Of a DNA stretch of 64,000 nt, positions 4,900-53,875 are shown piece after piece. The stretch is taken from contig JBHGNT010000003.1 of the NCBI GenBank assembly GCA_043228905.1, positions 868,001 to 932,000 on the forward strand, in the 5' to 3' direction. Positions within the stretch are counted from its first letter, which is position 1, and every line of letters begins with the position of its first letter. A program made the position numbers and the translations under genes. Under the pieces are notes generated by a model. That model worked only from the letters and a program-made list of their open reading frames with translations. It was not told the origin of the DNA and ran no database searches. This stretch comes from Azolla caroliniana. Its lineage: Eukaryota; Plantae; Polypodiophyta.

Positions 4900-5308
4900 C
4901 AGAAAAAGAAAGCAGTTGGAGTTAAAAGAAGAAGAAGAAGAATATTCACAAAAGGAAGAGGATTAAAATTAAGATTAAGAAGATCAGAGGTGGAAGAAGG
5001 AGTAAACATTAGAAAAAGGAAGAGGATTAAGATTAAGATTAAGATTAAGATTAAGAAGATCAGAGGTGGAAGAAGAAGGAGAAAACGTCAACAAAAGGAA
5101 GAGCATTAAGATTAAGATTAAGATTAAGATTAAGATTAAGAAGATCAGAGGTGGAAGAAGAAGGAGAGAAACATTAACAAAAGGAAGGGGCTTAAGATTA
5201 AGAAGAAGAGCAGAGATGGAAGAAGAAGAAGGAGAAGAAGGAGAAAAACATTAACAAAAAGAAGAGCATTAAGATTAAGATCAAGAAGAAGAAGAAGAAG
5301 AAGAAGAA
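4900..5308 (+). repeat. Compound (ATTAAG)n/(GAA)n repeat in the putative 5' leader
   Basis: Runs of AAGATT and GAA are organised in ~80-bp units containing AGATCAGAGGTGGAAGAAG. Confidence 0.85.
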
Positions 5309-8300
5309 ATGCGAGGAAGGATAGTTGATCCACCTGCTTTCATTACCCCGACATGTGCAGGATCATCAACAGATGATGATCCATCATACACAGAGAACGC
5401 GACAATCACATCCCGGAGGAGAAGCAGTCACGTGGGGAGACGGATCATAAGGGGGCGAGTCTATGATTCTCAGAATGGTGTCACATGTCACTGGTGCAGG
5501 CAAAAGACAGTGGAGGATCACGTGCATTGCGGGCTCTGCTCCATCTTCTTCTGCGGAGGATGCCTCCGGAATCGACACGGGGAGCTTATCGACCTGGAGA
5601 TGGAGACGGATCGCAACTGGATTTGCCCTAGATGCAGAGGCGGCTGCGGCCCTGGATGCAATCACTGGTATTTCCTTCTGATTCCCTCTACCTATACATT
5701 GAATCACTGTATGGTTATGGATTGTATTATATTGTATTATATGATTGTATGATTATGCATTGTATTGTATTCTAGGATTTTATGTATTGTATTGTATTAT
5801 ATCATTGTATGATTATGCATTGTATTGTGTTATATTGTATTCTATGATTTTATGTATTGTATTGTATTGTATTATTTGATTGTATGTTGTGTTGTATGAT
5901 ACTATGATTTTACGTATTGTATTGTATTATATGATTGTATGATTATGCATTGTATTGTATTGTATTCTATGATTTTATGTATTGTATTGTAATATATGAT
6001 TGTATGTTGTGTTGTATGATTCTATGATTATAATGTATTGTATTTTATGACTGTATATAATGTGTTGCATTGTACTCTATGATCTTATGTAATGTAATGT
6101 ATTATATGATTGTATGTTATAATGTATGATTATGTATTCTATTCTATGATTTTATGTATTGTATTGTATCATATGATTGTATGTTGTATTGTATGATTGT
6201 AATGTATGTATGTATGTATGGAGATCAACCTGCATTTTCTTCTTTTTTGGGTGTGCAGTTGCAACTGTGGGCGTTGCAGGAAGGTTCAGGGATTGGGGCC
6301 GACAGGGCTTCTGATTCGCACCGCCAGGGCTTCAGGATTCTCGAATGTCCATGACTTCTTGATCGCTCAGAGAACCAGAGAATCTCCGCAGGCCATATGG
6401 GAGCGAAAGAGAGGGAAAGGATGGTGCCGAACAGGGGATTTGGAATTCTCCCAATCCTCGGACCTCATCAAACAAACCCAAGACGCCATAGCTGAAGAGA
6501 AAGCTCAGAAATGCAGGAAAAGGCTGAGCTTCCATTCACCCTACAATCGCTGTCTAACGGAAACCCCTGGATGCAAGAATGGCCATACTACTGATGATAA
6601 TGATGATGATGATTACGGTATTAAGAAGAAGAAGAAGAAGAAGATGAAGACGAAGCAGGATCAACCGATTACTGTTAGGGCTGAGGAAAACATTGCTGTT
6701 AATCCACAATTACAAGAGAAGCAGAAGAAAAATCAGCGTAAATCAACCTCTGCAATTCAACAAAAGCAGATGAATTCCACACCATCCACTGCTACTGTGG
6801 CTCCTCATCCTCCAGGTTCTGGCCATGTTTTGCAGGTTAAAGAAGAGAAGAACGAGATCCCGGCCTCTCTAAATGACCATAGCTCTATGCTCCAAGTGGC
6901 TAAAGAACAGAAATCTGAGTTTCAGATCACTCAGAGGAACCCTACCTCGACAGTAACTTCTACCTCCGGATTAACGACAATGCATCATCTTCCGCATAAT
7001 GTGAAGGAGGAGAAATTTGTTGATATGGAGGATCGTGCTGGGATTCATCTAAGAAATGTTAAGGAAGAAGCTTGCGAACAATCGCACGCATCTCCTGCCT
7101 GTAATTCCTTAGGTTCTATGGCAATAAGCTATGTCACCGCATTTTCTCGCGATTCGAATGATGCCATATGGGGTAGATTTAGCTCCGAATTCAACATATG
7201 GTCTGAGAATGAAGAAGAAGAAGAAGACGATGAAGCCGATAATTATAATTATACGAAAGAACCTGTTTCTTCTATTTCTAATGAAGCTCGATGCTGCATT
7301 CTAAATCCTTCTGGGACCTTGATCAATGTCAAGAGGGAGAAATCATGGCCTGAAGTACCTACAACATTTTGTGCAGGCCACATGAATGAGAGAGAATCGG
7401 TCGAACAAAATGCCATGCTCGATAATCATGATGATGATGCGCAGAAGATGCCTCGAGCATTATGTGTCCGTGATGGAAATGAAGCAAATGGGGATGTAAA
7501 GAAGAGTGGAGGGTCAGTAGTTCATGTGGAACAACACCTGTGGAAGAAAGATGATACATTCAAGGGCCGATTGGATCGAAGGCTTTCGGAGCCATTCGAT
7601 GGAAAAGAATTGGAGGTGCTCATGGGATTAGTGAGCCAACGGAAACCCTTGTATCGAGTCCGTGAAACGAGAAACAACTCCTCGCAAGTTATCTCGAATG
7701 AGGAAGGAAACTCATATCTAGATCATTATCCTGGTATACACACACACACATATATATGACTCTGTGTACTTTTTTTTTTCTCTATTAGCTGGAAATCATC
7801 AGAACACTCTGAACCTCTGTTTCTCTTTTGTTTTTTAATGGTATGTAGAGTTAAATTCACTGCTCGAGTCGGCAAGCTGTCCAATGTCGAGGCTATGGTT
7901 TTTACGCGGATTCTTCTTCTGGCTCGAGGTAATGCAATGTTAAATCATGTCACTGGAAATTACAATACAAATACAGTGCTCAACCACTTATGACAGTTGA
8001 TGCCAAGCGAGGGTCTATGTTGAGCCAAATGGCCTAGGGTTTTAAGGTTTTGTAATTGCAATGCTCAAATCTTTTTCTTCCTTTCTATTTTCTGAAGGTC
8101 AAGGTTAGGGTTTTTGGTTACTTAAAGAAACCCTAAACCTCACTAATCTCTAGAATTGTAAACCACCTAAACCCTATAGTTCTGAACCATTAAGCTCCAT
8201 ATCCTAAATCTATATACCCTAGAGCCCCAATCTCTGAACTCTTAAGCTCTAAACCCTAATTCGTACACCATTAAATTAAATCCTTTATCCTACACCATTA

Positions 8301-8960: not shown

Positions 8961-9104
8961 TATATCTCCTCTCTTACCCATGTACGATATGTTAATAATC
9001 TCTTTAGAAGACAAGGCTGTTTCCTTTTTGCATTTTTGGAGTGATATATGCGAGAACCAAAATTTCTAATTATCTATATGAGCTTTTTGATAATCTTTGT
9101 CACA

Positions 9105-9177
9105 TCCGTTGTAGTCTAGTTGGTTAGGATACTCGGCTCTCACCCGAGAGACCCGGGTTCAAGTCCCGGCAACGGAA
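9105..9177 (+). tRNA. trnE-CUC: tRNA-Glu (anticodon CTC)
   Basis: TCCGTTGTAGTCTAGTTGGTTAGGATACTCGGCTCTCACCCGAGAGACCCGGGTTCAAGTCCCGGCAACGGAA has acceptor stem TCCGTTG/CAACGGA, anticodon arm CTCGG-CTCTCAC-CCGAG and T-loop TTCAAGT. It matches the plant cytosolic tRNA-Glu pattern. Confidence 0.97.
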
Positions 9178-9178
9178 C

Positions 9179-9186
9179 TTTTTTTT
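9179..9186 (+). terminator. Pol III oligo-T terminator of tRNA-Glu
   Basis: A T run starts 2 nt after the discriminator base. Confidence 0.8.
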
Positions 9187-9621
9187 ATCTTTTTCACTCA
9201 TGGTGTCGCTTGCCCCTTATTTAAATTTTTTTAATCTTTTTCACTCATGGTGTCCCTTGCCCCTTATTTAAAAGGATGAAAGCTCCAGTTTTGCTTCCAT
9301 CCATGAATTCTACATGTGTCTCCAGTTCAATTAGCCAAAAAATCATTATATAAAATTAAAATTTATGAGTTTTTTTAGTGAAATGTTGTTTGTGCAAAGG
9401 GGTACACCTGACAGATATGATGATCTTCGTTGGAACATATTGGAACTAAAAATAGTAGTGTGTGATTAAAGATAGGACCCATGCACATGTTCTTTTGGGG
9501 TGTGGGTAACTCTTGAATGGGGATTGATTAGATGACCATTCTAGTCATTGATTAATGCTGACTTTTGTAATTAAAACTTTGAGAAGGAATAAGTGTTCAT
9601 TTAACCAATGTAATGGACCAT

Positions 9622-9657
<36 letters not shown>

Positions 9658-10869
9658 TATATATATATACACACACACTTTTGATATGACGAGTTGACAA
9701 CACAAACTCATGTAATGGGATAACACATGCCCATTGGCATCTTAGAAACAACACCCCTTCTTCCACGAACGAGGAAGGGAGTCTAAGTATTAGGCTATGC
9801 TTTCAATGCATTGCACTCTGCCACATTCGAGTTTGCCTTCCACATATTGTCATTTTGGTTTGCTATCTTCACGTTCATCTCACAATCGCAATTTGCACTC
9901 TATCATAGCATTTATTTGAATAATTCTTTAAAATCAAGAGACAACCCATTTCCGCCAACAAAGATGAGAAATGATTTTTCTTATGAACCTTATAGCTCTC
10001 CACATAGAGCATATATAAAATATTTGCTTTGTCCCATAAGTCAATCATATTTGACCTCCAATGACAATATTTGAATGTATCTCATGTATGGCAACTATGC
10101 ATCTAAGGCAATGATCACAAACTTTGCATACAGTCACATGTGTTGAGAAATCAAACAAGGGGATTGGTCTAACTAGAATGACATGAAAAGGGCATGTTAG
10201 CTTTTATAACATGGGAGTAATGGAAGATAAGGCACATGTACTAAATAGAGTGTCGAGGTGAAATAGATCCATGGGATCAAAGTGCACCATTTCCATGAAG
10301 TGTGTGGAATTTATCAATGGCTCTCGATGTTCAAAGCTTTTACTGATGATTATTGCAATTGAGAGGACACACTGCAATTCAGTTCAACACATGTATAGGG
10401 ACAGTTCTTAGGTTTAAAATGTGGGGCAAACGAACCAAAATGTAATCCAAGGTGGTAGTACTACGAGGAAGGGCGTGAGTAAAAAAATGCATATTGAATG
10501 AGTCTTCTCGCCTTTGCCTCAATGCATAGTCTCACTCACATCGAAGAGAAGGTGAGCTACATGATGCAAATGTAGCGTCCCGATCCAACAACATTATGTT
10601 CCAGTACACAAGAACAAGAAAAGGCCAAGACGATCATTGTTTTCTAGAGTTTAAACAAGAACAATCTATCTATCTACCTACCTACCTATCTATATACATA
10701 TGTTGCAAGAAGCCACGAAGACTCGTGGGTGCCAGGTCCAGCCCACGTATGTATGTGTAGTGGGGTAAAAAGAGAAGGATGTAGCGCGGCCAAGCCTTGA
10801 CCCAAATGTGTGTAGGTAACTACATAAGGAAGTGAGGAGCCATGGATAAGTAAGAATTTGCAATCATTT

Positions 10870-11100
10870 AGTGAGCCACTTTGTATTAGTATGTATGTAT
10901 GTGTGTATGTATACATATATGTACATATGTATGTATGTATGTACTTGGCCCAAATGTGTGTAGAAGGAAGTGAGGAGCCATGGATAAGTCTGTATTATGT
11001 ATGTATGTATGTATGTATGTATGTATGTATGTATGTACGTGTGTATGTATACACGTGTGTATGTATACAAATATGTATAATGTACATATGTATGTATGTA
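10870..11100. repeat. (ATGT)n microsatellite with an embedded duplicated segment
   Basis: TATG repeats. CCCAAATGTGTGTAG...AAGGAAGTGAGGAGCCATGGATAAGT occurs at about 10800-10851 and 10948-10989. Confidence 0.8.
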
Positions 11101-11972
11101 TGGTGTGCACATGGAGGTTGCCAGAAATCTATGGAAAACTTGGAAGATATAAGAAAAACTCACATCTATGGCAGAAATTAGATAGGTAGACAGACACCAT
11201 ATATCTGTTCTCCAGGTACATCAGGTTGGCCATAGACCTGTGTTCATCAATCATGCTTTCCATTGGAGGACCACTGGCTTCTCTTGGATCTCTCTCAAGG
11301 TAAAAAGATTTCGTATGTATTCAAATGATATTCTGATTTCTCGTAAGAATTTGAGGTGGGATTGTTGAATCATAGATCTGATTTCCTCACAAACAAATAA
11401 AATCTTCAAAGGGTTTATAACCCTTAGGGTTAGGGCTAGCATCAGAGACTGTATTTTTAAACAGAATGATGTCCCTCGCAAGTCTCCACAAACAAACGAG
11501 ATCTCCAAAGGGTTTATAAACGTTAGTGTTAGGTTTAGCAATAAAAGACTGAACGTTTAAATAGTCTCACAAATGTTCACATTCTTAGTTTTTTTATGGT
11601 CGTTTTAGTGTTTATTGCATTGGTTTTCTTCATGTTTATCTCTTATGTTCAAATCCTTCCTTGCTTCCAACCTTGGAATCATTAGTTTGTCATTATGAGA
11701 CCATAATGTTGAAGCATTCTTAGATGCAATTTGTCATTTGTGGATCTCAATGACGTAAAAGTTCGAATTTTTTTTGTTGCCATTAGGATCAACACAAAGT
11801 GATAACTTGAAAGAAATTTCGCCATTGGGTCAAATATGCATTTTACTCTCTTGTAATTTGGCAATATTTTGGGTTAGGAAAATACATGAGATCACTAATA
11901 ACTCAATCTGTACTTGAAGTATTAGAACACTTGACACTTGAATCAAGAAAATGAATGAGATGATTGCAGTTT

Positions 11973-12925
11973 ATGATGAACTCTAATCAAGGAAATGGAA
12001 GTAATGTTATACCTTGCTCAAATGTGGATGGCAATTCAACCTGTCATCTTTTGATAGGTTAAAAATATATGATTCAGAAAAGAAAAATGTTTTATATAGG
12101 GTTACCTTGTTTAATATATTACAATACAGATCATAAAAGCTCATCTGTAAACAAACATTTAATCTTAATTCATTTAATGAATGAATTGTGTTTCTTCATG
12201 AACTTTGAAGGACACTAGTTTTATTCTTCCAAAATGCTTTTTATGTAGAAAAGTGGGATTGAAATTCCTAAATGTGTACCGGTGGTTATTGAGGTGCCGA
12301 AAGGTAGTTTTCTGAAAAAGCGTCCAGATGGCTCAATAGACTTTGTTTTGCCATCGCCATGCCCATTTAATTATGGATCGGTGACCTCTATCCAAGGATC
12401 TGATGGTAAAATATTTTCAACCTTTTGCAACTCATGTTTTTCATCTACTTTGACCTCAATGCACAGTATATAAAGATTTATAATATATAATGTGCTCACC
12501 TTTGGGCGGGGTGTTTTCTCTATGTTGTAACAAGGGTTAACTATGCAGGTGATCCATTAGATGCGATTGTTCTTGGAGATTATCTTCCATATGGGCATAT
12601 TGGAACCTGGAGAGTGAAAGGAAAGCTCAAATTCATCGATGCTGGTATGGTTGACGATAAATTAGTATGTGTTCAACCATCTCATTTCAATGAGTCATGT
12701 TTTGATAAGTTTTTAGAAATGGGTCTTCTTAATTTATCGGGTTTTCCTGAGGTAAAAGATGGTGAGAGATCTCGGCAAGAACTTTATAACGAAGATCTTA
12801 GTGTTCTTGATTTGTTGTCCCTGACTATTATTTTTAAGGCATATGCCCCATTTAAAGGATGGGTTAATGCCACTAGGAAGAAACATGGCATGACCTCCTT
12901 TGATGGTTGGGAGTTTTATGACTGA
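11973..12925 (+). CDS. ppa: Family I soluble inorganic pyrophosphatase of bacterial-like subtype; core exons 12249-12405 and 12549-12925, putative upstream exons 11973-12057 and micro-exon 12130-12146
   Basis: Spliced core reads VVIEVPKGSFLKKRPDGSIDFVLPSPCPFNYGSV..SDG|DPLDAIVLG..IDAGMVDDKLVCV. It has the family I PPase signature D-G-D-P-L-D-A, restored across a phase-1 GT-AG intron, plus the NYG and D-x-G-x-x-D-x-K motifs. The upstream exons are inferred from phase compatibility only. Confidence 0.85.
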
Positions 12926-13220
12926 ATTTATGGATGAACTGTGGTTGCAAAGCTCTCCAATTTTTGCTTTTTTAGCGGAACTGTTTCGACATATTGAGGT
13001 CTGCTGCTATATATGGCTAAGCTGCCTATGAAAGCATAAAGAAATCAATCTCTTGTGACCTCCTTTGATGGTTGGGAGTTTTATGACTGAGTTTATGGAT
13101 GATCTGTGGTTGCAAAGCTCTCCCATTTTTGCTTTTTTAGCAGAATTGTTTCGACATATTGAAGTCTGCTGCTATATATTGCGAAGCTGCATATGAAAGC
13201 ATGAAGAAATCAATCGCTTG
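12891..13220. repeat. Tandem duplication (about 165 bp x2) of the PPase last codons and 3' UTR
   Basis: TGACCTCCTTTGATGGTTGGGAGTTTTATGACTGA...GAAATCAATC is repeated at about 12891-13050 and 13056-13215. Confidence 0.9.
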
Positions 13221-14880
13221 TATTATTTTTGATGAATACAGATTTTCACAGAGTCTTGTATGAAATCTCATCCAGTTGGTATACGCGAGTTTAATGAAGC
13301 TTGTGTATGTGTAAAGCATATAAATGTGCGTGTGTGTGTGTTAACACGTGCAAACAAATACTGTAGATTGGGATACAACCTGGACAGTATGGGGTATTTC
13401 TGTTTTAATGGGAAATATCTCAACATTCTTTTGTATCAAATCTTGATATATGCATAGATCATCCTTCCCTCTCTTGAAATCCTATCTCATGAGAATTTAT
13501 CTTAAAGAGCAAAATGGAGCATTTAATTTAACTGCTTTTTTTTAGTGTATTATGGGCTATGAAATGAAGTGTCATGCATTTTGATGTTATGTCACTCACT
13601 GTGTACTTGTTTCCGGGAACAAACTCCCCTTGTAATAACCAATCCAAGCATTATTCTTATGCTGGTGTATGTAATAGGATGGTTTCCCCATATTGTTTTG
13701 GCTATCGATATCCCAAAACCTTCTGGTAGTAGGAACCACTAGTCTTAATGGTATGAGCAAACATCTTGCATTATTGGTGTAGCCATCTAGACCCCAAAAC
13801 TCGAGGGTGTTAGGGCCACATTTGTTATGGACGATTTACACCTCTCATAACAACATTCACATGGAAGCCAAATATTTCATCCATTGATACCTAGTCTTCA
13901 TCATTTGAAGATTTTATATTCTGTGATATCTGTGGATTGTGGAGCTCAAATAATGTGTTTGGGTCTAAAATACCCTGTTGTAGGCTCGAATCTCATTCAG
14001 GGTTAACAAATGGTGTGTGTTGTAGGCCTGATTCTCATTGAGGGTTAACAAATGGTGCACACACTCTTAATAAGATGAGTCTTATTGGTGTGTTTGATTG
14101 ATTAGTCGCTTCTAATATGTTTACATTATGCTTGCATTTACTTTGGATGACATCCTCTTCAAAAAACTAAATGTAGCTGTGATATATTCTTCATTGATGA
14201 CCAACATTATTGATCTAGTTTGTGTATGACATGCAACTTTGCAAGTATATTTCTCCTTTACGCAAGTATCTCTTGTTTATAAAAATAATTCTAAGTTGTA
14301 TTTTGCTCGGCATTCAAATGCTTGTGATGAAATGTCAATGTCCATTCATAAATGCCACAACTTGTGGGTTACTTCAGAGGCTACTCTTATGAAGACACCA
14401 CTTCTTGCCATCATATGAATAACTTCAACATAAGGGTGTTCTTTTTTCGATGATCTTTGTGATATACCAAAGCTTAAATCACCTTACTTTTATGTAATGG
14501 TCAAGGCTTGATAGACATGAATAATATTATTTAGACATGCACTCGCCCATAGAATCTTCATTTTTTTCATTCCTTTGTGGAGTAACCAATAGAAAAGTCG
14601 CATGGAAGCGTGTGCAAGACACAAATAATAAAGCATCATACCGTTTTTTAACTTGGATCAAAATCTAGATGTAAAGTCATTTTTACCCACAAAATTTAAA
14701 GTTTCACTCAAATGTGGTAGCACAACTATCTCCTTCCTTCTAGTTAAATGGTGTTATTTACTAATCCAAATAACAAATCCATGTTGTAATCAAATAATGT
14801 GACAAGACCATAATCTAGTTGACACTTTGTTCCTTTAACCACAAACATAATTGAGACTTGCTATCACATGAAATTGATTA

Positions 14881-27501: not shown

Positions 27502-28398
27502 TTAAGCATGCCTCCACGGTTCGTGGAGCAGATGAAGCACGCACGAATCACAAGAATCCACGGTATCATTCAACTTGTCGAGGTTGGCGATCGCTGAAGC
27601 CATCCATTCTTGGTCTAGAACCTCGTCAAGAAACGCATTCCCCTCACTGTCGAGCTCATTCAAGAACCAGCTAGTATTGTCAGGAGAAGCGCAGGTAAAC
27701 AAATCATTTCCAGAGTTGGAAAAGAAATCTGTACGAAACACAGTGTTTGGATCAAACCCCAGACCTCCGCTATTCAGGTCTAGATTACAATCGTCTTTCT
27801 TTCTTTCTTCTTCTTCATGTGGAGGATAGCAACGGCCGTTCTTGATATCTTGGCCAGCTCTCATGGAAACTGTATCACTGCTAGCGCTGCAGATATGGTC
27901 TCCATGAGAAAATGTGTGACTATAGTCCCTTGCTCCAGAAGGTATAGAAACGCCACGAAAATGGCTCTGGACTTCAACGTCATTATGGTTATTTTTGCTG
28001 TGATAATTGTGAAGAACAGAGAAGGAGCCAGTACTGCTCCCAATGCTAGACTCCGCTTCGCTGCTACAACTTTGTAATCTGACTCTAGATTTTACGGACT
28101 CTTCCTTATGAAGGTGGAAAGAATTTACTGACGATGCAGGTTCTGAAGCGCGTGTTGCATATTTGTTTTGGCATAGCTGTGCAGGATTCAATGAACGAAT
28201 ATGATTCTCAGAGACACAGCAAGAAGATGATGATGAAGATAGTGATGGTGATGAGGAATTGGAAGAAGAGAGACAGGAAGAGGACGAAGAAGAAGATAAC
28301 TTGATATTTTGGCGGAGGCGACGACGTTTCTTGAACGAATGGTCGTCCATGATATAATGACGCTTGGCAGAAGGAGAAATCCGGGAAGAAGACGACAT
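27502..28398 (-). CDS. Intronless uncharacterised 298-aa protein: basic NLS, poly-Ser, acidic/aromatic C-terminus (possible transcriptional regulator)
   Basis: An 897-bp ATG-TAA ORF in GC-elevated, non-repetitive DNA. It has KKRRRLR, a Ser tract, LDLN and WFLNELD..FLDEVLDQEWM. It is flanked by a pyrimidine-rich leader (to about 29250) and a long trailer. No family recognised. Confidence 0.6.
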   Translation of the reverse strand: MSSSSRISPSAKRHYIMDDHSFKKRRRLRQNIKLSSSSSSSCLSSSNSSSPSLSSSSSSCCVSENHIRSLNPAQLCQNKYATRASEPASSVNSFHLHKEESVKSRVRLQSCSSEAESSIGSSTGSFSVLHNYHSKNNHNDVEVQSHFRGVSIPSGARDYSHTFSHGDHICSASSDTVSMRAGQDIKNGRCYPPHEEEERKKDDCNLDLNSGGLGFDPNTVFRTDFFSNSGNDLFTCASPDNTSWFLNELDSEGNAFLDEVLDQEWMASAIANLDKLNDTVDSCDSCVLHLLHEPWRHA

Positions 28399-29894
28399 GT
28401 TGATGACTATGATTATTATAAGACAGGGAAGAATCGAGATCTAAAGGAAATCCGCGAAGAAGACGTCATATTGATAACTATAATTATTAACTCTCTGTGT
28501 ATGTTCTCCTGCCTTGAAGAAGTATTAGTTACAGCTTCAATGGTGACTTTTATGAGTTTCAGCATAAGCCTCGAAGCACAAACTGAAAAATTAAGAGGAG
28601 ATAGAACATACGCAGAGAAGAAATATAAGTTCGCAATCTAGATAGAACTTCCGCATTCGCGACTGTGGAGCAGCTACTGTGGCGGATTATATGGAGACCT
28701 TGATGCGTGGCGTTGCAGCGTAGATATCTGAGAAGAATGCAATCCTGGGAGAATAGGGGCTACTTGTGGCAGGAAGACGTTCCAAAACAGTTTTTTAAGT
28801 CTGCATAAACGCCAGAGAGGCCAGTTTCAGAGGCCACTGATGCAAGGTTGCAGTATGAATCATGTTGAGGCCATACAAAAATGGAATACACGAAAACAAG
28901 ATGAGGAAGAAGGTCGCCAAAGTCGGGATTAACACTCTATTGCCTTCCAGGGAGAAGCAGATGATGCAGGTTTAATGGATGCTTGGCTAGGAATCGGTGC
29001 AATATATTGAATGTTACTCAGGAGGGAGAGAGACAGGAATGGAGATAAACAAGGGAACAGGAGTACAGAAAAGGAAGGGAGGAAGCGAAGAATTTTTCAG
29101 AGAACTGGCGGAAAAGAGATGGCGAAGGCGAAGGTTATGGCTATGGCGATGGCGATGGATTAAGAGGAATGAGAGTCTGCAGAGAAATCAGAAGGAGGAG
29201 GGGAAGATGAAGGAGAAAGAAGGAAAGAAAGAAAGAAAGAAATGAAAAGGAGAGAGAAAGAGAGAATCATTAAATTAAAAGGAGGGTGTGTATTTGTTTT
29301 TTAAATAGAGTAAATAAATAAATAAGAATTTTTTTTAAAAAGCGAAAAAACAAAATATAGTTTTTAAAAAAGAAAAGTAGCCTTTCTATTTTTTTCCCGA
29401 AATCCAAAAAACCAAAATTTATTTACTTTTTTAAAAGAACGAAAATAGAAAAAACGGAAGAAGAAGAAGAAGAAGAAATGAAAAGAAATGCAGAAATCGA
29501 GGAAGAAGTACACGCACAAATAAATTTGGAAAATTTAATTTCGAAAAAAATAATAATTAATTATTAAAACATTAAAATTAAAAAAGAAATTAATGTAGTT
29601 ATACATAAACAAACATGCGGTTTTTTTTTACCTCTTCTTTTTTACGGACCCCTTTTTTTAGACCCCCAAAATAAAACAAATAAATAAATGGTGATTTTGT
29701 TAAATAAATATGGAATTTCCTGTATTTTGTTTTTATTTTTTTTGGGGGGGGAGGGGGGCTATTTAGTAATAAATATATGTTGTCAAAAGTTTTGTAACTT
29801 GCATGCAACGTTTCACACTTTGGAGTCTCTAATGTCCGGACAAGAACCAATGGAGTTAAAAAGAAATAGTAGAAAAATATGTACTATATAGATA

Positions 29895-45800: not shown

Positions 45801-48800
45801 TATCATCCGAGAGGAGACTGACCCTGACTTCATTCTTGAGAGGGGTACTGCTGTAATCTTGCATCTAAAGGTTGGTTATGATTTTTGACAACGTGATTTC
45901 TGCTTTGTGGGTGGAGGTTGAGGGGAAGTGTGGTCTTATTTCTGAAAATAATTTCAAATTTATTTCAGGAGGATGCATTGGACTATCTTGATACTGAAAA
46001 AGTTCAGGAGCTTGTGAAGAATTATTCACAATTTATCTCTTTTCCTATTTATGTTGGACGGGAGAAACCTGCAGTAGCTAAGGTTGGTTTCTCTTAACCA
46101 CTATGGTATCTGTGCTTGTTTTGCTCCGTCTCACAGTATGAGATATGTATACTGTTGTTACATTATTGAAATGATGATTTTTGTACAGGCAACAGAGGAT
46201 GGTACTGAACCTGAGAAGGTGAGTTGTTCTGCTAATACCAAAGTATTATTGAACCGTTTAAATTTAAAGAGACTAGTAACTAATTGGTGGTTGGTTTCTG
46301 GTTTTATGCAGGAAAAGAAAACTTACAGCTATGAACTTGTGAATGAAACAAAGCCAATCTGGGTTAGTAAACTTATCTTCATGTCTTGTTTTATTCTTTG
46401 TATATGTTTTTTCATGTAAAGGTCATATTTTATGTCATACGGACTTGTAACAAGAAATATAATCTCTCTACGATGTGTGCAGATGCGAAGCCCAAAAGAA
46501 GTTACAAAGGAGGAGTACCATGCATTCTATAAGAAGACATATGATGAACGTCTTGACCCAATGGCTTACTCACATTTTAATACTGAGGTATGTTTTTCTC
46601 AAATGGAGAGAGCTGAAATCGTTCAATTTGCGTCAAATAATAAACATTGCTTGTTTTTTTTTGTTTTATCTTGTTATGGCAGTATCTGAACTTCTCATAA
46701 GTTTCTTCTCACAGGGTGAAGTGGAGTTTAAAAGTCTCTTGTACATTCCTGGAATGGCTCCTTTTTCGTCAGATAAAGCTTCTTCAGAACTCAAGAACAT
46801 AAAGCTTTATGTTAGACGGGTGTTCATTTCTGATGATTTTCATGGAGCATTGGTGAGGCACTTGAAATCTTCTTCAAATAATATTTTATTCAAAATAATA
46901 TAGTGACCATGCTGTTCTCATATCAACTTTGTTCTGGCTTTATGCTACAGTTTCCTAGTTACCTATCCTTCATGAAGGGCGTTGTTGATTCTAATGATCT
47001 ACCTCTAAATGTATCTCGTGAACTTCTGCAAGAGAGTAGAATTGTAAGTGTCTTTTTAGCAGCTGCATATGAGATATGTTTGGGACATACCTGACACTGT
47101 TGTCTTACAGATGAATCTCATGAAGAAAAGGTTGACAAAGAAATCATTTGATTTGTTTGATTCGATTATGAAGAGGAAGGATCCAGAGGTAACATAATCT
47201 ATGTAGAATCTAGATGTTAGACATATAAACTCTACTGATGGTTTCTCTCAGGTATCCATGTCTTTGATTAATCTAATGCACGTTTGTATACTCATTTGCT
47301 TCATAGGAGTACAAGAAGTTCTGGAGGAACTATGGGAAGTACATAAAACTGGGTATAAGTGAAGACAAAGATAACCAAAAAAGACTGTCATCCTTCCTGA
47401 GATATTATTCATCAAAGCATCAGGAAGAAATGACTAGCCTGAAAGATTATGTGGAGAACATGAAAGAGGACCAGCAGGCTATTTACTACTTCTCATCAGA
47501 ATCTGTTAAAAGTGCTAGGAATGCTCCCTTCATGGAGAAACTTGTTGAGAGAGGATACGAGGTATCACATATCTTGGCTGCTATTTTATTCTGTTATTAC
47601 TATATGATTGCAGCTCTCAATATTCTTAACACTGAAAAAATTGATCTGACTTGTAGGTTCTGTTTCTCACGGAACCTTTGGATGAGGTTTCAATCAATGC
47701 TCTCAAATCTTTTAAGGGGAAAGATTTTATTGATGTGAGCAAGGAAGACTTTGATATAGGTATGCATTTTCGTTGCACATCTTAAGAAAATGCTCAGTAT
47801 TTATGTGTAATCATACCCCATGTATTTCTGCATTACACAGTAGTCAAATGCTAGATGCATCCGAAATCTTAAACATCATTAATATTTGCATCTAAATTAT
47901 TAAGTAAAGCTATTTGAAACTTAAGTTGTTTTACGAACGTATGGTTATTGATAGTTTTAAATTAATACTCGGATTTGCCTAGTTTTGAGTATAGATATTT
48001 AAAACCTCAGTTTTTTGTTGATATTGCAGTCTGTCTGTGGGGTAGTAGATTGTATTGATTTGCTATATATCAATTTTAAATCTCTTATATGCCCATTCAG
48101 TGGAAATAAAATTTGACATTCTTCTTTTTCTGTGGAATAGGCATATAAGACTTTCTCATACACAAGTTTTTTCTTCTATCTTTCTGTGATGAATAAGCAC
48201 TTGTTATTTCTAGATCCAAGAACTGTGCTATATCAACTTTTCTTTTTACGCAGGTGATGATGAAGAGCAGAAACAACTAGTGAATGAATATGCACCTTTG
48301 TGTGATTGGATGAAGGATATGCTGGGCGAGAAAATTTCTAAGGTTGAAGTATCGAAAAGACTGAGCACTTCACCATGCGCACTGATTTCGGGTAAATATG
48401 GATGGTCTGCCAACATGGAAAGGTATAGCGCGTGTACTTTAAAGCCTAGATTTAATGCGGAATGAGGCTTGAGAAGATTTGTTAACACTCATGTCTTTTG
48501 TTTGCAGGATGATGAGAGCCCAGAATCTAGGTGATACCCCTGGGCTCAGAGAGTACATGGCATCAACTAGAATTCTTGAAATCAATCCGAATCATCGCAT
48601 AATTCAGTACCTGGATGTGAGTAGAATTATAGTTATTTTTCATCCGTATTATGGCATTTTAAAAATAATATTGCTTGACCTAGATAGAGATCACTTTTGC
48701 TAGGATGCTCGGCTTGCTGGAAAAGATGACACTATGGACACTGTTGAGCTTCTTTATGAAACTGCTCTTATGTCAAGTGGTTTTGTTGTGAGTACTTATT

Positions 48801-49582
48801 TGCCAAATTTTCTTTCAGTTTTGTGTTTAGGATTTTTTCTTTATGTCTGAATTTCTGTTTCATCCATGAAATATTAGTAAATTTGAGAAAAGAAACAAAT
48901 TTTTTGGAGCAGCAGCAAACTTATGGAAAAAACCACTATTTTACGTTCGTTTGTTGGATTTTTCTTATGATTGGTTTCCTTGCTGCAGCCTGAAGATCCA
49001 GCAGGTCTCGGTTCCAGAATCTATCAGTTGATAGAAGCCAATGTAAGTGGAGGCAACAACGTGAACCAAGTATATAGTGAGACTCAATATAATGCTGCTA
49101 GTCAAGGATACAATGAGGGTCAATACAATACTCCTAGTCCAGGATACAATGAAGGTCCTTACAATGCTGCTGGTCAAGTATACAATGAGGGTCAATACAA
49201 CACTTCTAGTCAAGGATACGATGCTGCAAGTCAAGGATACCCTGAAGGTCAATACAATCAATACCCTGGGAATCCAGGATACTCAGAGGGTCAATACAAT
49301 CAAGGATATGATGGGAGCCAAAGCAATCAATATGGTGTGAATCAAGCATACACTGAGGGTCAATATGATCCAAGTCAAGCATATAGTGCTGGTCAATATG
49401 ATGCAAATCAAGGATACAATGGAGGTCAATACAATGTGAGTCCGGATCAAGGTCAATACAATGTGGGGCAAGGTCAATATAGCGGCCCTGAAGAATTTGC
49501 TGGAAATGATTTGCCACCGTACCAGGATCCCAACTTTGCCCCCTCGACCAGACCACCTCCAATTGAACCCGAAGTTGTGTGA
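42821..49582 (+). CDS. HSP90-5: Organellar (plastid HSP90C-like) HSP90 with a repeat-rich C-terminal extension; about 20 exons (42821-42925, 43902-44087, 44467-44540, 44659-44784, 45017-45110, 45192-45278, 45727-45870, 45969-46082, 46189-46218, 46312-46362, 46483-46587, 46715-46852, 46951-47043, 47111-47188, 47308-47561, 47657-47759, 48254-48422, 48508-48616, 48704-48787, 48989-49582)
   Basis: The N-terminus is a Ser/Ala/Arg-rich transit-peptide-like sequence. Signatures seen: [55 protein letters not shown](K)[55 protein letters not shown] and LEINPNH. The HSLYSH and ISDDF forms are organellar. Plastid versus mitochondrial assignment is an inference. Confidence 0.93.
49070..49485 (+). repeat. 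Coding minisatellite, about 36 bp (YNEGQYNxxSQG) units in the last HSP90 exon
   Basis: GGTCAATACAAT/GGTCAATATGAT recurs more than 10 times and the frame is preserved throughout. Confidence 0.9.
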
Positions 49583-50320
49583 TATGAAAGCGCACACATA
49601 TCAAAGTGTGAAATGGGTTCATATACAACTGTCAGAAGTTTGTTCCTAAGTGAAAATCCTTGTATATGACTCATATGAGTATGGAAAGCATAGAATTAAA
49701 CTGTTATTTCTTTTGCCTGGTTTCCAAATTTATTATAATACCGGAACTGCTTGCATTGTGCAAGATGTATTGAAATTTTGACCTTGAAATTAAGAGAGTT
49801 TTTATGGGGTAACACAACAGTATGTCAGAAATGATGAGAAGATACGACAAATCTATGTGAATTTGGCATGAATTTTCAGGAATTCCTAATAGATTGGCCT
49901 AGGAATTTTCAGGTCTAACAACTACAAGGATGGCAACATCTCTGAGACACAACCTGTGCTATTTGCTCGACTACTTGACCATAGAACCAAACTCAAGGAA
50001 TATCAAAACAGTGAAATTGGGCAAAATATTTTGGATTTCATTTGTTTATTCCATGGGTCATATGCTCCCCCCCCCCCCCGGTGCCATCCTCCACCTGATG
50101 ATGCTAAATCGTCATCATCATCATTGTCGACAATGTTTATTTTTTTTCGTTTATAAATGGAGTTGCACTTTAGTGAATGAGGGCACCTTTTCGTCAAATA
50201 TTGAGAAGTAGCTCTATTGGAAGTAAAATACGTTGTCTATATGTTTTTCCTCATACCTTACGAAATTGAAATGCTTCTCAGAAGTGGTAGGGGGTTGTCA
50301 ATACAATAGATACTTATGTG

Positions 50321-51435: not shown

Positions 51436-53790
51436 TGTGTGAAATATTTGGAAATTGGATATATTTCCGAAAACACCAACCGATTAATATAATCGTGGGA
51501 TTCACGAAAATAATATAATCTATACTTGTGGGATTCACAAGTTTCTTATATCTTTCTTTCAATCTAAATACATATTCTTATCTAAATATTGATTAATAGA
51601 ATACAATACACTCGTGGGATTCACGAAATTTCTATCTCTCTTTCTAATAATCTATTCATTACTAGCCTCATCTCATATTCTTCTTTCTCCTAGTCCAAAA
51701 CCCCGGTGGTTCCCACCCGACTCACGCAAACGATCCGGAGCCGAAAGGCACGACACAGTTGGTGAACCCGACGTGAAGGTGGGTGGCAAGGAGATGGAGA
51801 ATCAACAAGAGGCGATGAACATGATGATGATGATGTTCGAGAGAATGCTACAAGAACAACGCGAGATGTCGGAGATCACGATAGTAGTAAAGCGGCTCGT
51901 ACAACGAAACGGACAATTCAACGGAAACGATGTGTCACGCTATCTACGTGACTACAAGGCGGAGATGATACGATGTGGGATACCGGAAGGATTGCAAGTG
52001 ACATCCTTCAATCGGGTAGCCACGGATGAGTTACAAGAAAGAATCTACAAGATACGGCAACAAAATTCGACATGGGGGTCATTCGAAGAAGCTTTACGAG
52101 AGGCATATGATTACAAGAGATCGAAGGGAAAAGATCGGCGAGAATTCGACGAATGGGTGGCATCGGAGAAGACCCACCGAAGTGCAACACAAGCATTCCT
52201 AGAGTTCGAGCATCGTCTTGCTCAACTCTCGGAGCGGGAACAACGGTTGGTGGGGGAGGATAAAGTCCTAATGTTCGTAAAATCGATCGATCGAAAAGAA
52301 AGGATGGACATCGGGATCGAACTCGAAGACGATGACGGTACGAATGGTCTTACCGAAAATTGGGCCGAAGTCCAAAGGGTATGCCGGAGACATGATGAGA
52401 GGAAGATGAGAATCTTGTCAACAACATGGCCGATGAAGGATGGTCGATTGAAGACAAACGATGGAGCCGATATGAAGGCCGAAATACAACATGATGGTGC
52501 GACGGAAGAGGGTGTAAAACAAGCTACCCTCTTGTCTTGCGAAAGAACGACGGCGAAGGATAAGGCCGATAACCCAAGTGTAGAAGAAGATTTCGGAATA
52601 CAAGTGTCCGAAACATCAGGTGAAAAAGGGGTAAGCATAATTGATGTTTCCATAATTGATGCAGTGAAAGAGAGCAAGGAGGACTTGATTGAGGAGGTCA
52701 CCACAAAAGATGACATCGAATCGAAGGTGGCTATGGACGAATCAATGGCGGATGGCCATATCGAGATTTCTCCACCACTGATTCTAGAGACTCCGGCGGT
52801 TGCGTTCGAAAGGCAACGTGAGACCGAAGAGACGGAAGGTGGCGGAGAGAAAACAAAGGTCGAAGTCGATGCATACGACGGAGAGATAGCCGAGAATATG
52901 GCTATGGGTGAAACAATGGAGGATGATAATACCGAGGATTCCTACCCACTAATTCTAGAGACTTCGGCAGTTGTGTCCGAGAACCAACGTGAGACCGGAG
53001 AGACGGGAGGTGGCAGCAAGAAAGGTAAAGTCGGAAGCCGGTTTGGATGGAAGGTGATCCGGACGGGATTCCGATCCGAAAGAAAGCCGAACCGGGTAAA
53101 AGAGGATTCGACCAAAAGTCGACCCGAAAGAAAGCCGAACCGAAAGGAAAAGAATTCGGCCAAAAGACGACACAAACGAAAGCCGAACCGGGCGAATGAG
53201 GATTCGGCCGAAAGACGACCCGAAAGAAAGCCGACCCGAAAAGGGGTCGACTCGGTCAAAACCGATCGACCGAGTCTGACTTGGCCGAACGCGAATATGG
53301 ATGGAAGCCGACCTAGCCGAAAGCCGATCGGACGAGATCGATCCGGAAAGAAGCTAATCCGACTCAACCGGAGGTTGGACCGGTCAAGGCTGGTGAAAAC
53401 GAGGAAAAGAAAGCCAACTGAAACCGAAACCGATAGATCGAAACCGGGCCGGAAGGAGACCGACTCAATCGAAACCGAACAACCGATTCCGATTTGGCCG
53501 AATACGAATCCGATCGGAAGCCGATCAAACCGAAAGTCGATCGGACGAGAGCAATCCGGAAAAAAGTCAAGGTTGATGAAGACAAGAAAGAGGCCAGTAA
53601 AAGACACTACCACGAATGACAAGGGCCAAGAATATGACGAGAGAGAACAAAGAATATGGTGGATCGGATGGCGACAATGGTTCGGGTGGAAAGAATGGGT
53701 CTACTCAAAATGGAGAGACAAAGTTGACATAGCGGGACAAACGGAGGATGAAGGGGAGACAACGAGCATCGGCAACTTCGGCACAACGTG
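51436..53790 (+). mobile_element. LTR retrotransposon 5' part (Ty3/gypsy-like): LTR about 51436-51757, PBS, gag-like ORF; no pol or 3' LTR seen
   Basis: The putative LTR is bounded by TGTGT...ACACA with internal GTGGGATTCAC repeats. The PBS follows 2 nt later. CpG-rich composition contrasts with the flanks. Confidence 0.75.
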
Positions 53791-53875
53791 TTGTACCAAT
53801 CTCATGGCATATGATCTTTTGCAACTTAAGGCCAATGTTTTCTATTGTAAATGCAAAGTGTTTGCGCACCTTTGA
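51614..53875 (+). CDS. Retrotransposon Gag-like ORF (likely true start at MENQQE, about 51793) with acidic then highly basic repeat extension
   Basis: Uninterrupted 753-codon ORF. FNGNDVSRYLRDY...W..FEEALREAY resembles a Ty3 capsid-like region. It is followed by a duplicated PLILET..RET.ET.GG segment and RKPNR repeats. No protease, RT or integrase motifs. Confidence 0.65.
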   Translation: MGFTKFLSLFLIIYSLLASSHILLSPSPKPRWFPPDSRKRSGAERHDTVGEPDVKVGGKEMENQQEAMNMMMMMFERMLQEQREMSEITIVVKRLVQRNGQFNGNDVSRYLRDYKAEMIRCGIPEGLQVTSFNRVATDELQERIYKIRQQNSTWGSFEEALREAYDYKRSKGKDRREFDEWVASEKTHRSATQAFLEFEHRLAQLSEREQRLVGEDKVLMFVKSIDRKERMDIGIELEDDDGTNGLTENWAEVQRVCRRHDERKMRILSTTWPMKDGRLKTNDGADMKAEIQHDGATEEGVKQATLLSCERTTAKDKADNPSVEEDFGIQVSETSGEKGVSIIDVSIIDAVKESKEDLIEEVTTKDDIESKVAMDESMADGHIEISPPLILETPAVAFERQRETEETEGGGEKTKVEVDAYDGEIAENMAMGETMEDDNTEDSYPLILETSAVVSENQRETGETGGGSKKGKVGSRFGWKVIRTGFRSERKPNRVKEDSTKSRPERKPNRKEKNSAKRRHKRKPNRANEDSAERRPERKPTRKGVDSVKTDRPSLTWPNANMDGSRPSRKPIGRDRSGKKLIRLNRRLDRSRLVKTRKRKPTETETDRSKPGRKETDSIETEQPIPIWPNTNPIGSRSNRKSIGREQSGKKSRLMKTRKRPVKDTTTNDKGQEYDEREQRIWWIGWRQWFGWKEWVYSKWRDKVDIAGQTEDEGETTSIGNFGTTCCTNLMAYDLLQLKANVFYCKCKVFAHL
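51760..51777 (+). other. Primer-binding site complementary to tRNA-Trp
   Basis: TGGTGAACCCGACGTGAA is the reverse complement of TTCACGTCGGGTTCACCA, the 3' end of plant cytosolic tRNA-Trp(CCA) as I recall it. Confidence 0.85.

What the first reader, a model, noticed from the sequence alone, without database searches (positions are those of the whole stretch)
11973..12925. Intron-containing pyrophosphatase that looks bacterial: candidate horizontal gene transfer into a land plant
Seen: a spliced gene with the family I PPase signature DGDPLDA split by a canonical intron. Its N-terminal part is IEVPKGSFLKKRPDGSIDFVLPSPCPFNYG and it ends FKAYAPFKGWVNATRKKHGMTSFDGW. Established: plant cytosolic PPases have VEI.KGSKVKYELDK and LYSSVVYPHNYGF, and plastid PPases have the eukaryotic AKME/NYG..PQTWE type. 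Neither fits; the conserved KYE and DR residues are missing here. Inference from memory: the pattern IEVP(R/K)GSFLKR..G.IDF.SP.PCPFNYGSV...FY...K..LN..R...G....GW matches a short, poorly characterised bacterial PPase-like subfamily. That would make this a domesticated bacterial gene with gained introns, an N-terminal extension and a ~40-aa insertion after DDKLVC. Its substrate may not be PPi.
Basis: partly seen in the sequence, partly recalled or inferred. Interest (0 to 1): 0.85.

Follow-up and report, generated by a model that had tools for sequence, protein, structure and literature searches.

The report
Ancient bacterial-type pyrophosphatase relative in ferns
This is a real, spliced fern gene from a little-studied, mostly bacterial offshoot of the pyrophosphatase enzymes; mosses, clubmosses and algae share it, so it likely came from bacteria long before ferns arose, and its rebuilt active site likely cuts a longer phosphate chain than plain pyrophosphate.

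Summary
The gene is real and spliced, but the first exon was misplaced. Contigs of 4 of 4 runs join 11299|12254 and 12405|12549, giving a 191-aa protein from ATG 11253; 11973 lies in intron 1. The protein belongs to a short family I PPase-like subfamily found mostly in Myxococcota and Proteobacteria (144 bits against a bacterial short-form profile, 51 against canonical PPases). It is not a transfer into ferns or land plants. Orthologues occur in mosses, lycophytes and Zygnematophyceae (one clade, 100/97), and glaucophytes carry the subfamily too; a single origin for all eukaryotic copies is not rejected (AU p 0.51). No seed-plant name appeared among the 120 best hits. The metal-binding core is intact, but E31, R43, Y51 and K142 (E. 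coli numbering) are gone in bacterial and plant members alike, and other basic residues are conserved instead. 39 of 50 bacteria with the short form also keep a canonical PPase, so it looks accessory. Most likely it is an Mg-dependent hydrolase of a longer phosphoanhydride, probably in the plastid; this is untested. Verdict: an uncharacterised variant of a known family, anciently acquired.

The parts
11253..11299 (+). Coding part of exon 1 (ATG at 11253; 47 nt); 5' UTR covered by contigs from about 11113
   Evidence: (joint 11296>12251, GT..AG at cut +3, in 4 of 4 runs)
11300..12253 (+).
12254..12405 (+). Exon 2 (152 nt): E20, K29 and Y55 equivalents, the PCPFNYG motif and D65
12406..12548 (+). 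Intron 2, 143 nt, GT..AG, phase 1, inside the D-G-D-P-x-D motif; the same site is read through in Closterium records
12549..12925 (+). Coding part of exon 3 (377 nt with stop): D67, D70, D97, D102, K104 and Y141 equivalents and the long C-terminal helix
12671..12799 (+). Plant-specific variable insertion (about residues 108-150); low confidence in the model of the Pteridium orthologue
12891..13220 (+). Tandem duplication of 165 bp (12891-13055 and 13056-13220, 93% alike) that copies the last codons, the stop and the start of the 3' UTR; the ORF ends in copy 1

Best explanation
This is a spliced fern gene of a short, family I pyrophosphatase-like subfamily that is otherwise mostly bacterial; it was likely taken up from a non-cyanobacterial bacterium no later than the common ancestor of Zygnematophyceae and land plants, and it likely encodes an accessory Mg-dependent hydrolase that clips the end phosphate from a phosphoanhydride longer than PPi. 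Shown: gene structure, subfamily membership, the streptophyte clade, retention of the metal cage and general base (E20, K29, Y55, D65, D67, D70, D97, D102, K104, Y141) and loss of E31, R43, Y51 and K142. Predicted: the PPase OB-fold. Inferred: water activated on the retained metal cage attacks the terminal phosphate as in canonical PPases. The lost residues line the leaving-phosphate side (roles recalled), so that side is opened and relined with subfamily-specific basic residues, which would suit a tri- or short polyphosphate, or an organic di- or triphosphate. Also inferred: plastid location and loss in seed plants. Odds by step: ancient bacterial origin about 0.85; active hydrolase about 0.85; main substrate not PPi about 0.5; plastid about 0.55.
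For: Splice joints in 4 of 4 runs. Window protein scores 143.6 bits on a profile of bacterial short forms and 50.9 on canonical PPases. The fern profile scores bacterial short forms 120-144 bits but Arabidopsis and Medicago PPases 33-35. Streptophyte clade 100/97 in IQ-TREE and 97 in FastTree of 380 rows. Shared intron site with Closterium. Site audit and column counts over 380 rows: K29 99%, Y55 100%, D70 100%, D97 98%, D102 99%, K104 99%, Y141 97%; the K142 column is A/S/G in 96%; new conserved R after K29 (93%), K at Y141+4 (96%) and R at Y141+11 (88%). In Acinetobacter PPase, R44 and K143 are among the residues holding PPi and K143R is inactive (PMC6770254, passages). 39 of 50 genomes with the short form also hold a strong canonical PF00719 match. 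The short form is more basic than the same genome's canonical PPase in 19 of 19 pairs (median 4.4 pI units). AlphaFold models match family I PPases. N-terminal extensions of moss and glaucophyte members are S/T/A/R-rich and low in D/E.
Against: No assay exists. Plant members are not uniformly basic (window core pI 5.2; range 5.2-9.1). The window's own extension is only about 20 residues, short for a transit peptide, and no targeting predictor was run. No gene neighbourhood is shared across 53 bacterial loci, so context gives no substrate. The donor is unresolved: the bacterial sister pair has 94/77 support and no names. Cyanobacteria were not searched directly. Seed-plant absence rests on the 120 rows listed of 1206.
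Confidence: 0.45

Rival explanations
1. Same ancient history, but the enzyme is an ordinary PPi hydrolase with a rewired active site: subfamily-specific basic residues take over from R43 and K142, and it serves as a second, conditional PPase.
For: Ten of the 14 audited catalytic positions are kept, D42 aside. Three new basic positions are 88-96% conserved. Same fold. Databases name some members inorganic diphosphatase, by similarity only.
Against: Even K143R abolishes activity in a canonical enzyme (PMC6770254 passages). A canonical PPase is present beside it in 39 of 50 genomes. It scores far below the NCBIfam equivalog cut-offs (36 vs 200 bits).
Confidence: 0.33
2. Membrane-associated polyprenyl-diphosphate phosphatase that supplies or recycles the lipid carrier for the plastid peptidoglycan wall.
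For: Its range (glaucophytes, Zygnematophyceae, mosses, lycophytes, ferns) overlaps the lineages reported to make plastid peptidoglycan (PMC9434261 and PMC4815162, passages). Long, basic and more hydrophobic C-terminal helix in bacterial members. Opened leaving-group side.
Against: BacA is present in 47 of 50 genomes that carry the short form, so no replacement pattern. No cell-wall genes recur beside it. Several vascular plants keep nearly the whole pathway (PMC4815162 passages), yet no seed-plant hit was listed. Patchy in bacteria: 54 of 201 genomes of one phylum.
Confidence: 0.07
3. Recent transfer from a bacterium into ferns or early land plants.
For: Bacterial short forms are the closest non-plant relatives.
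Against: Ferns nest within a starred streptophyte clade that includes Mesotaenium and Closterium. Intron 2 site shared with Closterium. Glaucophyte members exist.
Confidence: 0.03
4. The eukaryotic copies came by several independent transfers (streptophytes; glaucophytes; other algae), or came in with the cyanobacterial endosymbiont. This concerns origin only and is compatible with any of the substrates.
For: The free IQ-TREE trees split streptophytes from glaucophytes, with weak support.
Against: FastTree joins all 24 eukaryote-like rows (93). The tree holding 15 eukaryotic rows together has a log-likelihood 0.68 higher, AU p 0.51. An unnamed intron-bearing record that falls near the glaucophytes shows the same intron site. 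None of 53 bacterial loci is titled as a cyanobacterium (4 of 64 parts scanned).
Confidence: 0.35

Closest known systems
Family I soluble inorganic pyrophosphatases (PF00719; E. coli Ppa, Sulfolobus 1qez, Acinetobacter 6k21)
   Same: OB-fold core (Foldseek E 1e-9; VIA Z 13.5, rmsd 2.6 over 126 residues); D-x-D-P-x-D motif; metal ligands, general base, K29, Y55, K104 and Y141.
   Different: Lacks E31, R43, Y51 and K142; a 7-residue deletion in the K29-R43 hairpin; bacterial members lack the loop region after K104 and the last helix; longer helix after Y141; Pfam matches only positions 1-94 of 153; basic rather than acidic in bacteria.
Plant cytosolic PPa1-5 (Arabidopsis 4lug/5ls0, Medicago 6mt1)
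   Same: Same fold and core motif.
   Different: 33-35 bits against the fern profile, no better than archaeal or bacterial canonical PPases; 23-28% identity in structural alignments; not the parent lineage.
Trypanosome vacuolar soluble pyrophosphatases (5cuu, 5cux)
   Same: Family I fold (VIA Z 12). Recalled: they hydrolyse short-chain polyphosphate, a precedent for non-PPi substrates on this fold.
   Different: Eukaryotic-type, much larger, weak sequence match (E 1e-4); no sign of close kinship.
Anciently acquired bacterial genes of streptophytes (Yue et al. 2012, PMC3493653; Ma et al. 2022 as cited in PMC12448838; fern aerolysin-like genes, PMC9477723)
   Same: Bacterial origin with introns gained later; like the aerolysin-like genes, found in land plants other than seed plants (passages).
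   Different: No pyrophosphatase is named in the three main texts searched or in the one Yue supplement held. The Ma et al. list could not be read, so it may be listed there.
Pfam InPase PF18823
   Same: Another divergent PPase-like family; seen as a weak hit on a canonical protein.
   Different: 0 of 5 fern proteins matched it at E <= 0.1.

Membership tests
Family I PPase superfamily (PF00719) | Profile match over the curated cut-off | tested here: met
   5 of 5 fern orthologues match (first member 44.9 bits vs cut-off 23.5). Window exon 3 alone gives 23.1 bits.
Family I PPase superfamily (PF00719) | OB-fold PPase architecture | tested here: met
   AlphaFold models of a bacterial member (pLDDT 93) and the Pteridium orthologue (83) match solved PPases. 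The window's spliced protein itself was not folded.
Canonical family I PPase (enzyme of PPi) | Metal cage and general base D65, D67, D70, D97, D102, E20 | tested here: met
   All kept in the window protein; D65 is E in part of the betaproteobacterial branch.
Canonical family I PPase (enzyme of PPi) | Phosphate ligands K29, R43, Y55, K104, Y141, K142 and E31 | tested here: not met
   K29, Y55, K104 and Y141 kept; R43, K142, E31 and Y51 absent in all 18 subfamily rows audited, present in all 11 canonical rows.
Canonical family I PPase (enzyme of PPi) | NCBIfam equivalog cut-offs (PRK01250, PRK02230) | tested here: not met
   36 bits vs 200 and 32 vs 246.
Canonical family I PPase (enzyme of PPi) | Mg-dependent PPi hydrolysis; hexamer in prokaryotic-type enzymes | not testable with these tools
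   Needs an assay; no oligomer prediction was run.
Short bacterial PPase-like subfamily (no named model found) | P-x-P-C-P-F-N-Y-G motif, K-R after the first strand, F-F-x-x-Y-x-x-x-K helix, terminal G-W | tested here: met
   143.6 vs 50.9 bits. The window has K for the conserved R and I for the first F.
Plant PPa1-5 cytosolic or PPa6 plastid PPases | Closer to plant PPases than to bacterial proteins | tested here: not met
   vs for the PPa1 type. No PPa6 sequence was held for a tree; eukaryotic-type structures score lowest.
Endosymbiotic (cyanobacterial) gene transfer | Cyanobacterial sister group | tested here: inconclusive
   0 of 53 short-form loci titled as cyanobacteria, from 4 of 64 parts of the collection; no direct search of cyanobacterial genomes was possible.
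Plastid-targeted protein | Transit peptide | tested here: inconclusive
   Composition fits in Sphagnum, Ceratodon, Cyanophora and Gloeochaete; the extension is short in the window and Mesotaenium. No predictor available.

The most novel reading that the evidence does not exclude
A single uptake of a Myxococcota-like gene at the root of Archaeplastida gave plastids a family I-fold enzyme that is not a pyrophosphatase but the soluble polyprenyl-diphosphate phosphatase of the chloroplast peptidoglycan pathway, kept from glaucophytes to ferns and lost in seed plants.
Probability: 0.06. Interest if true: 0.8.

Novelty: new variant of a known kind. Interest (0 to 1): 0.45.

Why it matters
It marks out an apparently unstudied branch of a textbook enzyme family: the catalytic metal core is intact while the leaving-group side is rebuilt. 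It has members in tractable organisms (Physcomitrium XP_024358807 / A0A2K1IRK7, Ceratopteris KP509_22G043600, Myxococcus and Corallococcus species), so one assay panel and one moss knockout would say whether the family I fold has a second native chemistry. It also adds a candidate to the non-cyanobacterial genes of early plant evolution that seed plants seem to have dropped. It is less surprising than first scored: ancient bacterial acquisitions in streptophytes are a well-described kind, and the gene is already annotated as a PPase-like protein in several plant genomes.

Tried and rejected
First exon from ATG 11973: rejected, all four runs splice across it. Gene neighbourhood as a clue: none shared across 53 loci; a SpoIIM-family neighbour in 27 of the 30 best loci from one phylum but 2 of 53 broader loci is read as lineage synteny. 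Replacement of BacA: BacA present in 47 of 50. Viral carrier: 29 viral loci, all weak (E 1e-12 or worse) and partial, none the full short form. A search for longer eukaryotic relatives was swamped by bacterial hits and added no new named eukaryote among 120 rows. No run is on record as RNA, so expression rests on spliced contigs only. The window's own genome is not held, so copy number and the fern's canonical PPases were not checked. ESM Atlas gave only PF00719 clusters. Earlier findings of the scan: none by words or sequence. Literature: nine searches listed no paper that, by title or abstract start, describes this subfamily; six accession terms gave 0 papers. Two careful trees did not finish and were read as quick trees. 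No tree was rooted with canonical PPases, so direction of transfer is inferred from distribution. No complex prediction was run.

Full report
Observation. The window is plant-like DNA; neighbours include a zf-4CXXC_R1 gene and an Hsp90 gene. At the stated place there is a PPase-like reading frame split by a 143-nt GT..AG intron inside the D-G-D-P-x-D motif, ending at stop 12925. Exon 3 matches PF00719 (E 7e-5), and its best named relatives are from Adiantum and Ceratopteris, so the host is very likely a fern. Contigs of 4 of 4 public runs laid on 9000-14500 skip 12406-12548 and also skip 11300-12253, both with GT..AG ends. Run X2 matches 12312-12404 and 12548-12920 with no difference. The runs are only guessed to be RNA, and X1 and X14 may be one data set. 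The supported model is 11253-11299, 12254-12405 and 12549-12925, 191 aa, with an in-frame stop upstream of the ATG.

What family it is. A profile of five fern proteins found 1206 proteins at E <= 1e-5 among 7997 scored, of which 120 were listed. After the plant rows come short proteins of about 120-180 aa with names such as Myxococcota, Nannocystaceae, Acidobacteriota and Kiritimatiellia, at 120-144 bits. The same profile scores solved canonical PPases, including Arabidopsis PPa1 and Medicago PPase, at 22-45 bits. In GTDB, 53 of the 80 loci kept were this short form, mainly Myxococcota and Beta- and Gammaproteobacteria, and none was titled as a cyanobacterium; the scan covered 4 of 64 parts. 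The window protein scores 143.6 bits on a profile built from those bacterial loci alone and 50.9 on a profile of canonical PPases. AlphaFold models of a bacterial member (pLDDT 93) and of the Pteridium orthologue (83) have the family I fold. The plant insertion is a low-confidence loop of variable length.

When it arrived. It is not fern-specific. Of the 18 rows with E below 1e-39, 11 are named or hold named members: Pteridium, two Adiantum, Ceratopteris, Ceratodon, Physcomitrium, Sphagnum, Selaginella, Diphasiastrum, Mesotaenium and Closterium. Seven are unnamed; six of them were in the tree, where five group with ferns, mosses or Mesotaenium and one is unplaced within streptophytes. No seed plant is named among the 120 rows. 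Cyanophora and Gloeochaete (glaucophytes) also carry the subfamily, with long N-terminal extensions. Two further members lie, without introns, on metagenome contigs beside an armadillo-repeat gene of eukaryotic look. In an IQ-TREE tree of 57 rows and 137 columns, 11 streptophyte rows form one clade at 100/97; fragments, near-copies and most long branches were left out. Closterium records read through an intron at the same D-G|D-P site, while Sphagnum records are contiguous there. Whether all eukaryotic copies share one origin is open. FastTree on 380 rows joins 24 eukaryote-like rows at 93. The free IQ-TREE tree puts two unnamed bacterial rows beside the streptophytes at 94/77. The tree holding the 15 eukaryotic rows together is 0.68 log units better, AU p 0.51. 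No tree was rooted, so the direction bacteria-to-plant is inferred from the family being broad in bacteria and narrow in eukaryotes. The donor cannot be named.

How it likely works. Against E. coli Ppa (fetched), the window protein keeps E20, K29, Y55, D65, D67, D70, D97, D102, K104 and Y141, and lacks E31, R43, Y51 and K142. All 18 subfamily rows audited lack those four; all 11 canonical rows have them. D42 falls in a gap in that alignment but aligns in the HMMER alignments. Over 380 rows the retained sites other than D65 are 91-100% conserved (D65 is often E in the betaproteobacterial branch), and the subfamily has its own conserved basic residues: R after K29 (93%), K four residues after Y141 (96%) and R eleven after (88%) (the sample is heavy in one betaproteobacterial branch). 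From recall, the retained residues bind the metals, the attacking water and the attacked phosphate, while R43, K142 and E31 serve the leaving phosphate. In Acinetobacter PPase, R44 and K143 are listed among the residues that hold PPi, and K143R is inactive (PMC6770254, passages only). In bacteria the short form sits beside a canonical PPase in 39 of 50 genomes (50 of the 53 loci were sent), occurs in 54 of 201 genomes sampled from the Myxococcus phylum, and is far more basic than its genome's canonical enzyme in 19 of 19 pairs (20 fetched, one not parsed). I read this as an accessory Mg-dependent hydrolase whose leaving-group side is rebuilt for a longer polyanion such as tri- or short polyphosphate, or an organic di- or triphosphate. 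Against this, the new basic residues may just replace R43 and K142, plant members are not uniformly basic (window core pI 5.2), and gene context gives no substrate. Transit-peptide-like extensions in mosses and glaucophytes suggest the plastid, but the window's extension is short.

The peptidoglycan idea. The range overlaps the lineages with plastid peptidoglycan (PMC9434261 and PMC4815162, passages), which suggested a lipid-carrier diphosphate phosphatase. BacA is present in 47 of 50 host bacteria, no wall genes recur nearby, and several vascular plants keep most of that pathway, so this stays a low-odds reading. I did not check which plant genes are already candidates for that step.

What is known. 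Plant orthologues are annotated only as hypothetical, uncharacterised or inorganic diphosphatase. Nine literature searches (listings only) showed no paper on the subfamily. The words pyrophosphatase and diphosphatase do not occur in the main texts of Yue et al. 2012, a 2025 review of plant HGT or the Ceratopteris genome paper (word searches and passages), nor in the one Yue supplement held. Ma et al. 2022 is not held, and its supplementary list, like other supplements I could not see, may include this family.

Verdict. Bacterial affinity is supported; transfer into a land plant is not, because the gene predates land plants. It is a new variant of a known kind: an uncharacterised PPase-like subfamily with a remodelled active site and an old plant branch. 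Interest 0.45.

Noticed in passing
window 12790-12863: Of 13 listed read differences inside the coding sequence, 9 change the amino acid, 7 of them in residues 147-172, and three of four runs share most of them against the window. This copy may be a diverged allele or homeologue under relaxed selection; no catalytic residue is hit. The list was cut (46 rows not shown).
   Followed up: partly
window 12891-13220: 165-bp tandem duplication of the gene's end; a contig of a more distant run (X3) runs through both copies, so it may predate this species.
   Followed up: partly
window 5279-7756 (+): Gene with a zf-4CXXC_R1 zinc finger split over two ORFs.
   Followed up: partly
window about 46000-49600 (+): Hsp90 gene (PF00183 at 47307-47735) followed by an ORF with a Y/Q/G-rich repeat at 48971-49579.
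   Followed up: partly
window 51593-53872 (+): 760-aa ORF with internal repeats and no Pfam match; resembles a retrotransposon gag-like ORF by eye (recalled, untested).
   Followed up: no
window 27505-28440 (-) and 59518-60655 (+): Long ORFs that look like exons of plant genes but match no Pfam family as fragments.
   Followed up: no
L082:1477-1980 and L083:3256-3702: Intronless members of the subfamily on compact eukaryote-like metagenome contigs, head to head with an armadillo-repeat gene; organism unknown.
   Followed up: partly
L169:39-1938 and 26 other loci of L164-L193: In one myxobacterial lineage the gene lies next to a SpoIIM-family gene; in L169 a GNAT and a DUF58 gene follow on the other strand.
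   Followed up: partly
P0126; P0376; P0200: A 545-aa protein with three canonical PPase domains; and apparent fusions of the short form with a saccharopine dehydrogenase C-terminal domain and with InlB B-repeats, possibly assembly chimeras.
   Followed up: no
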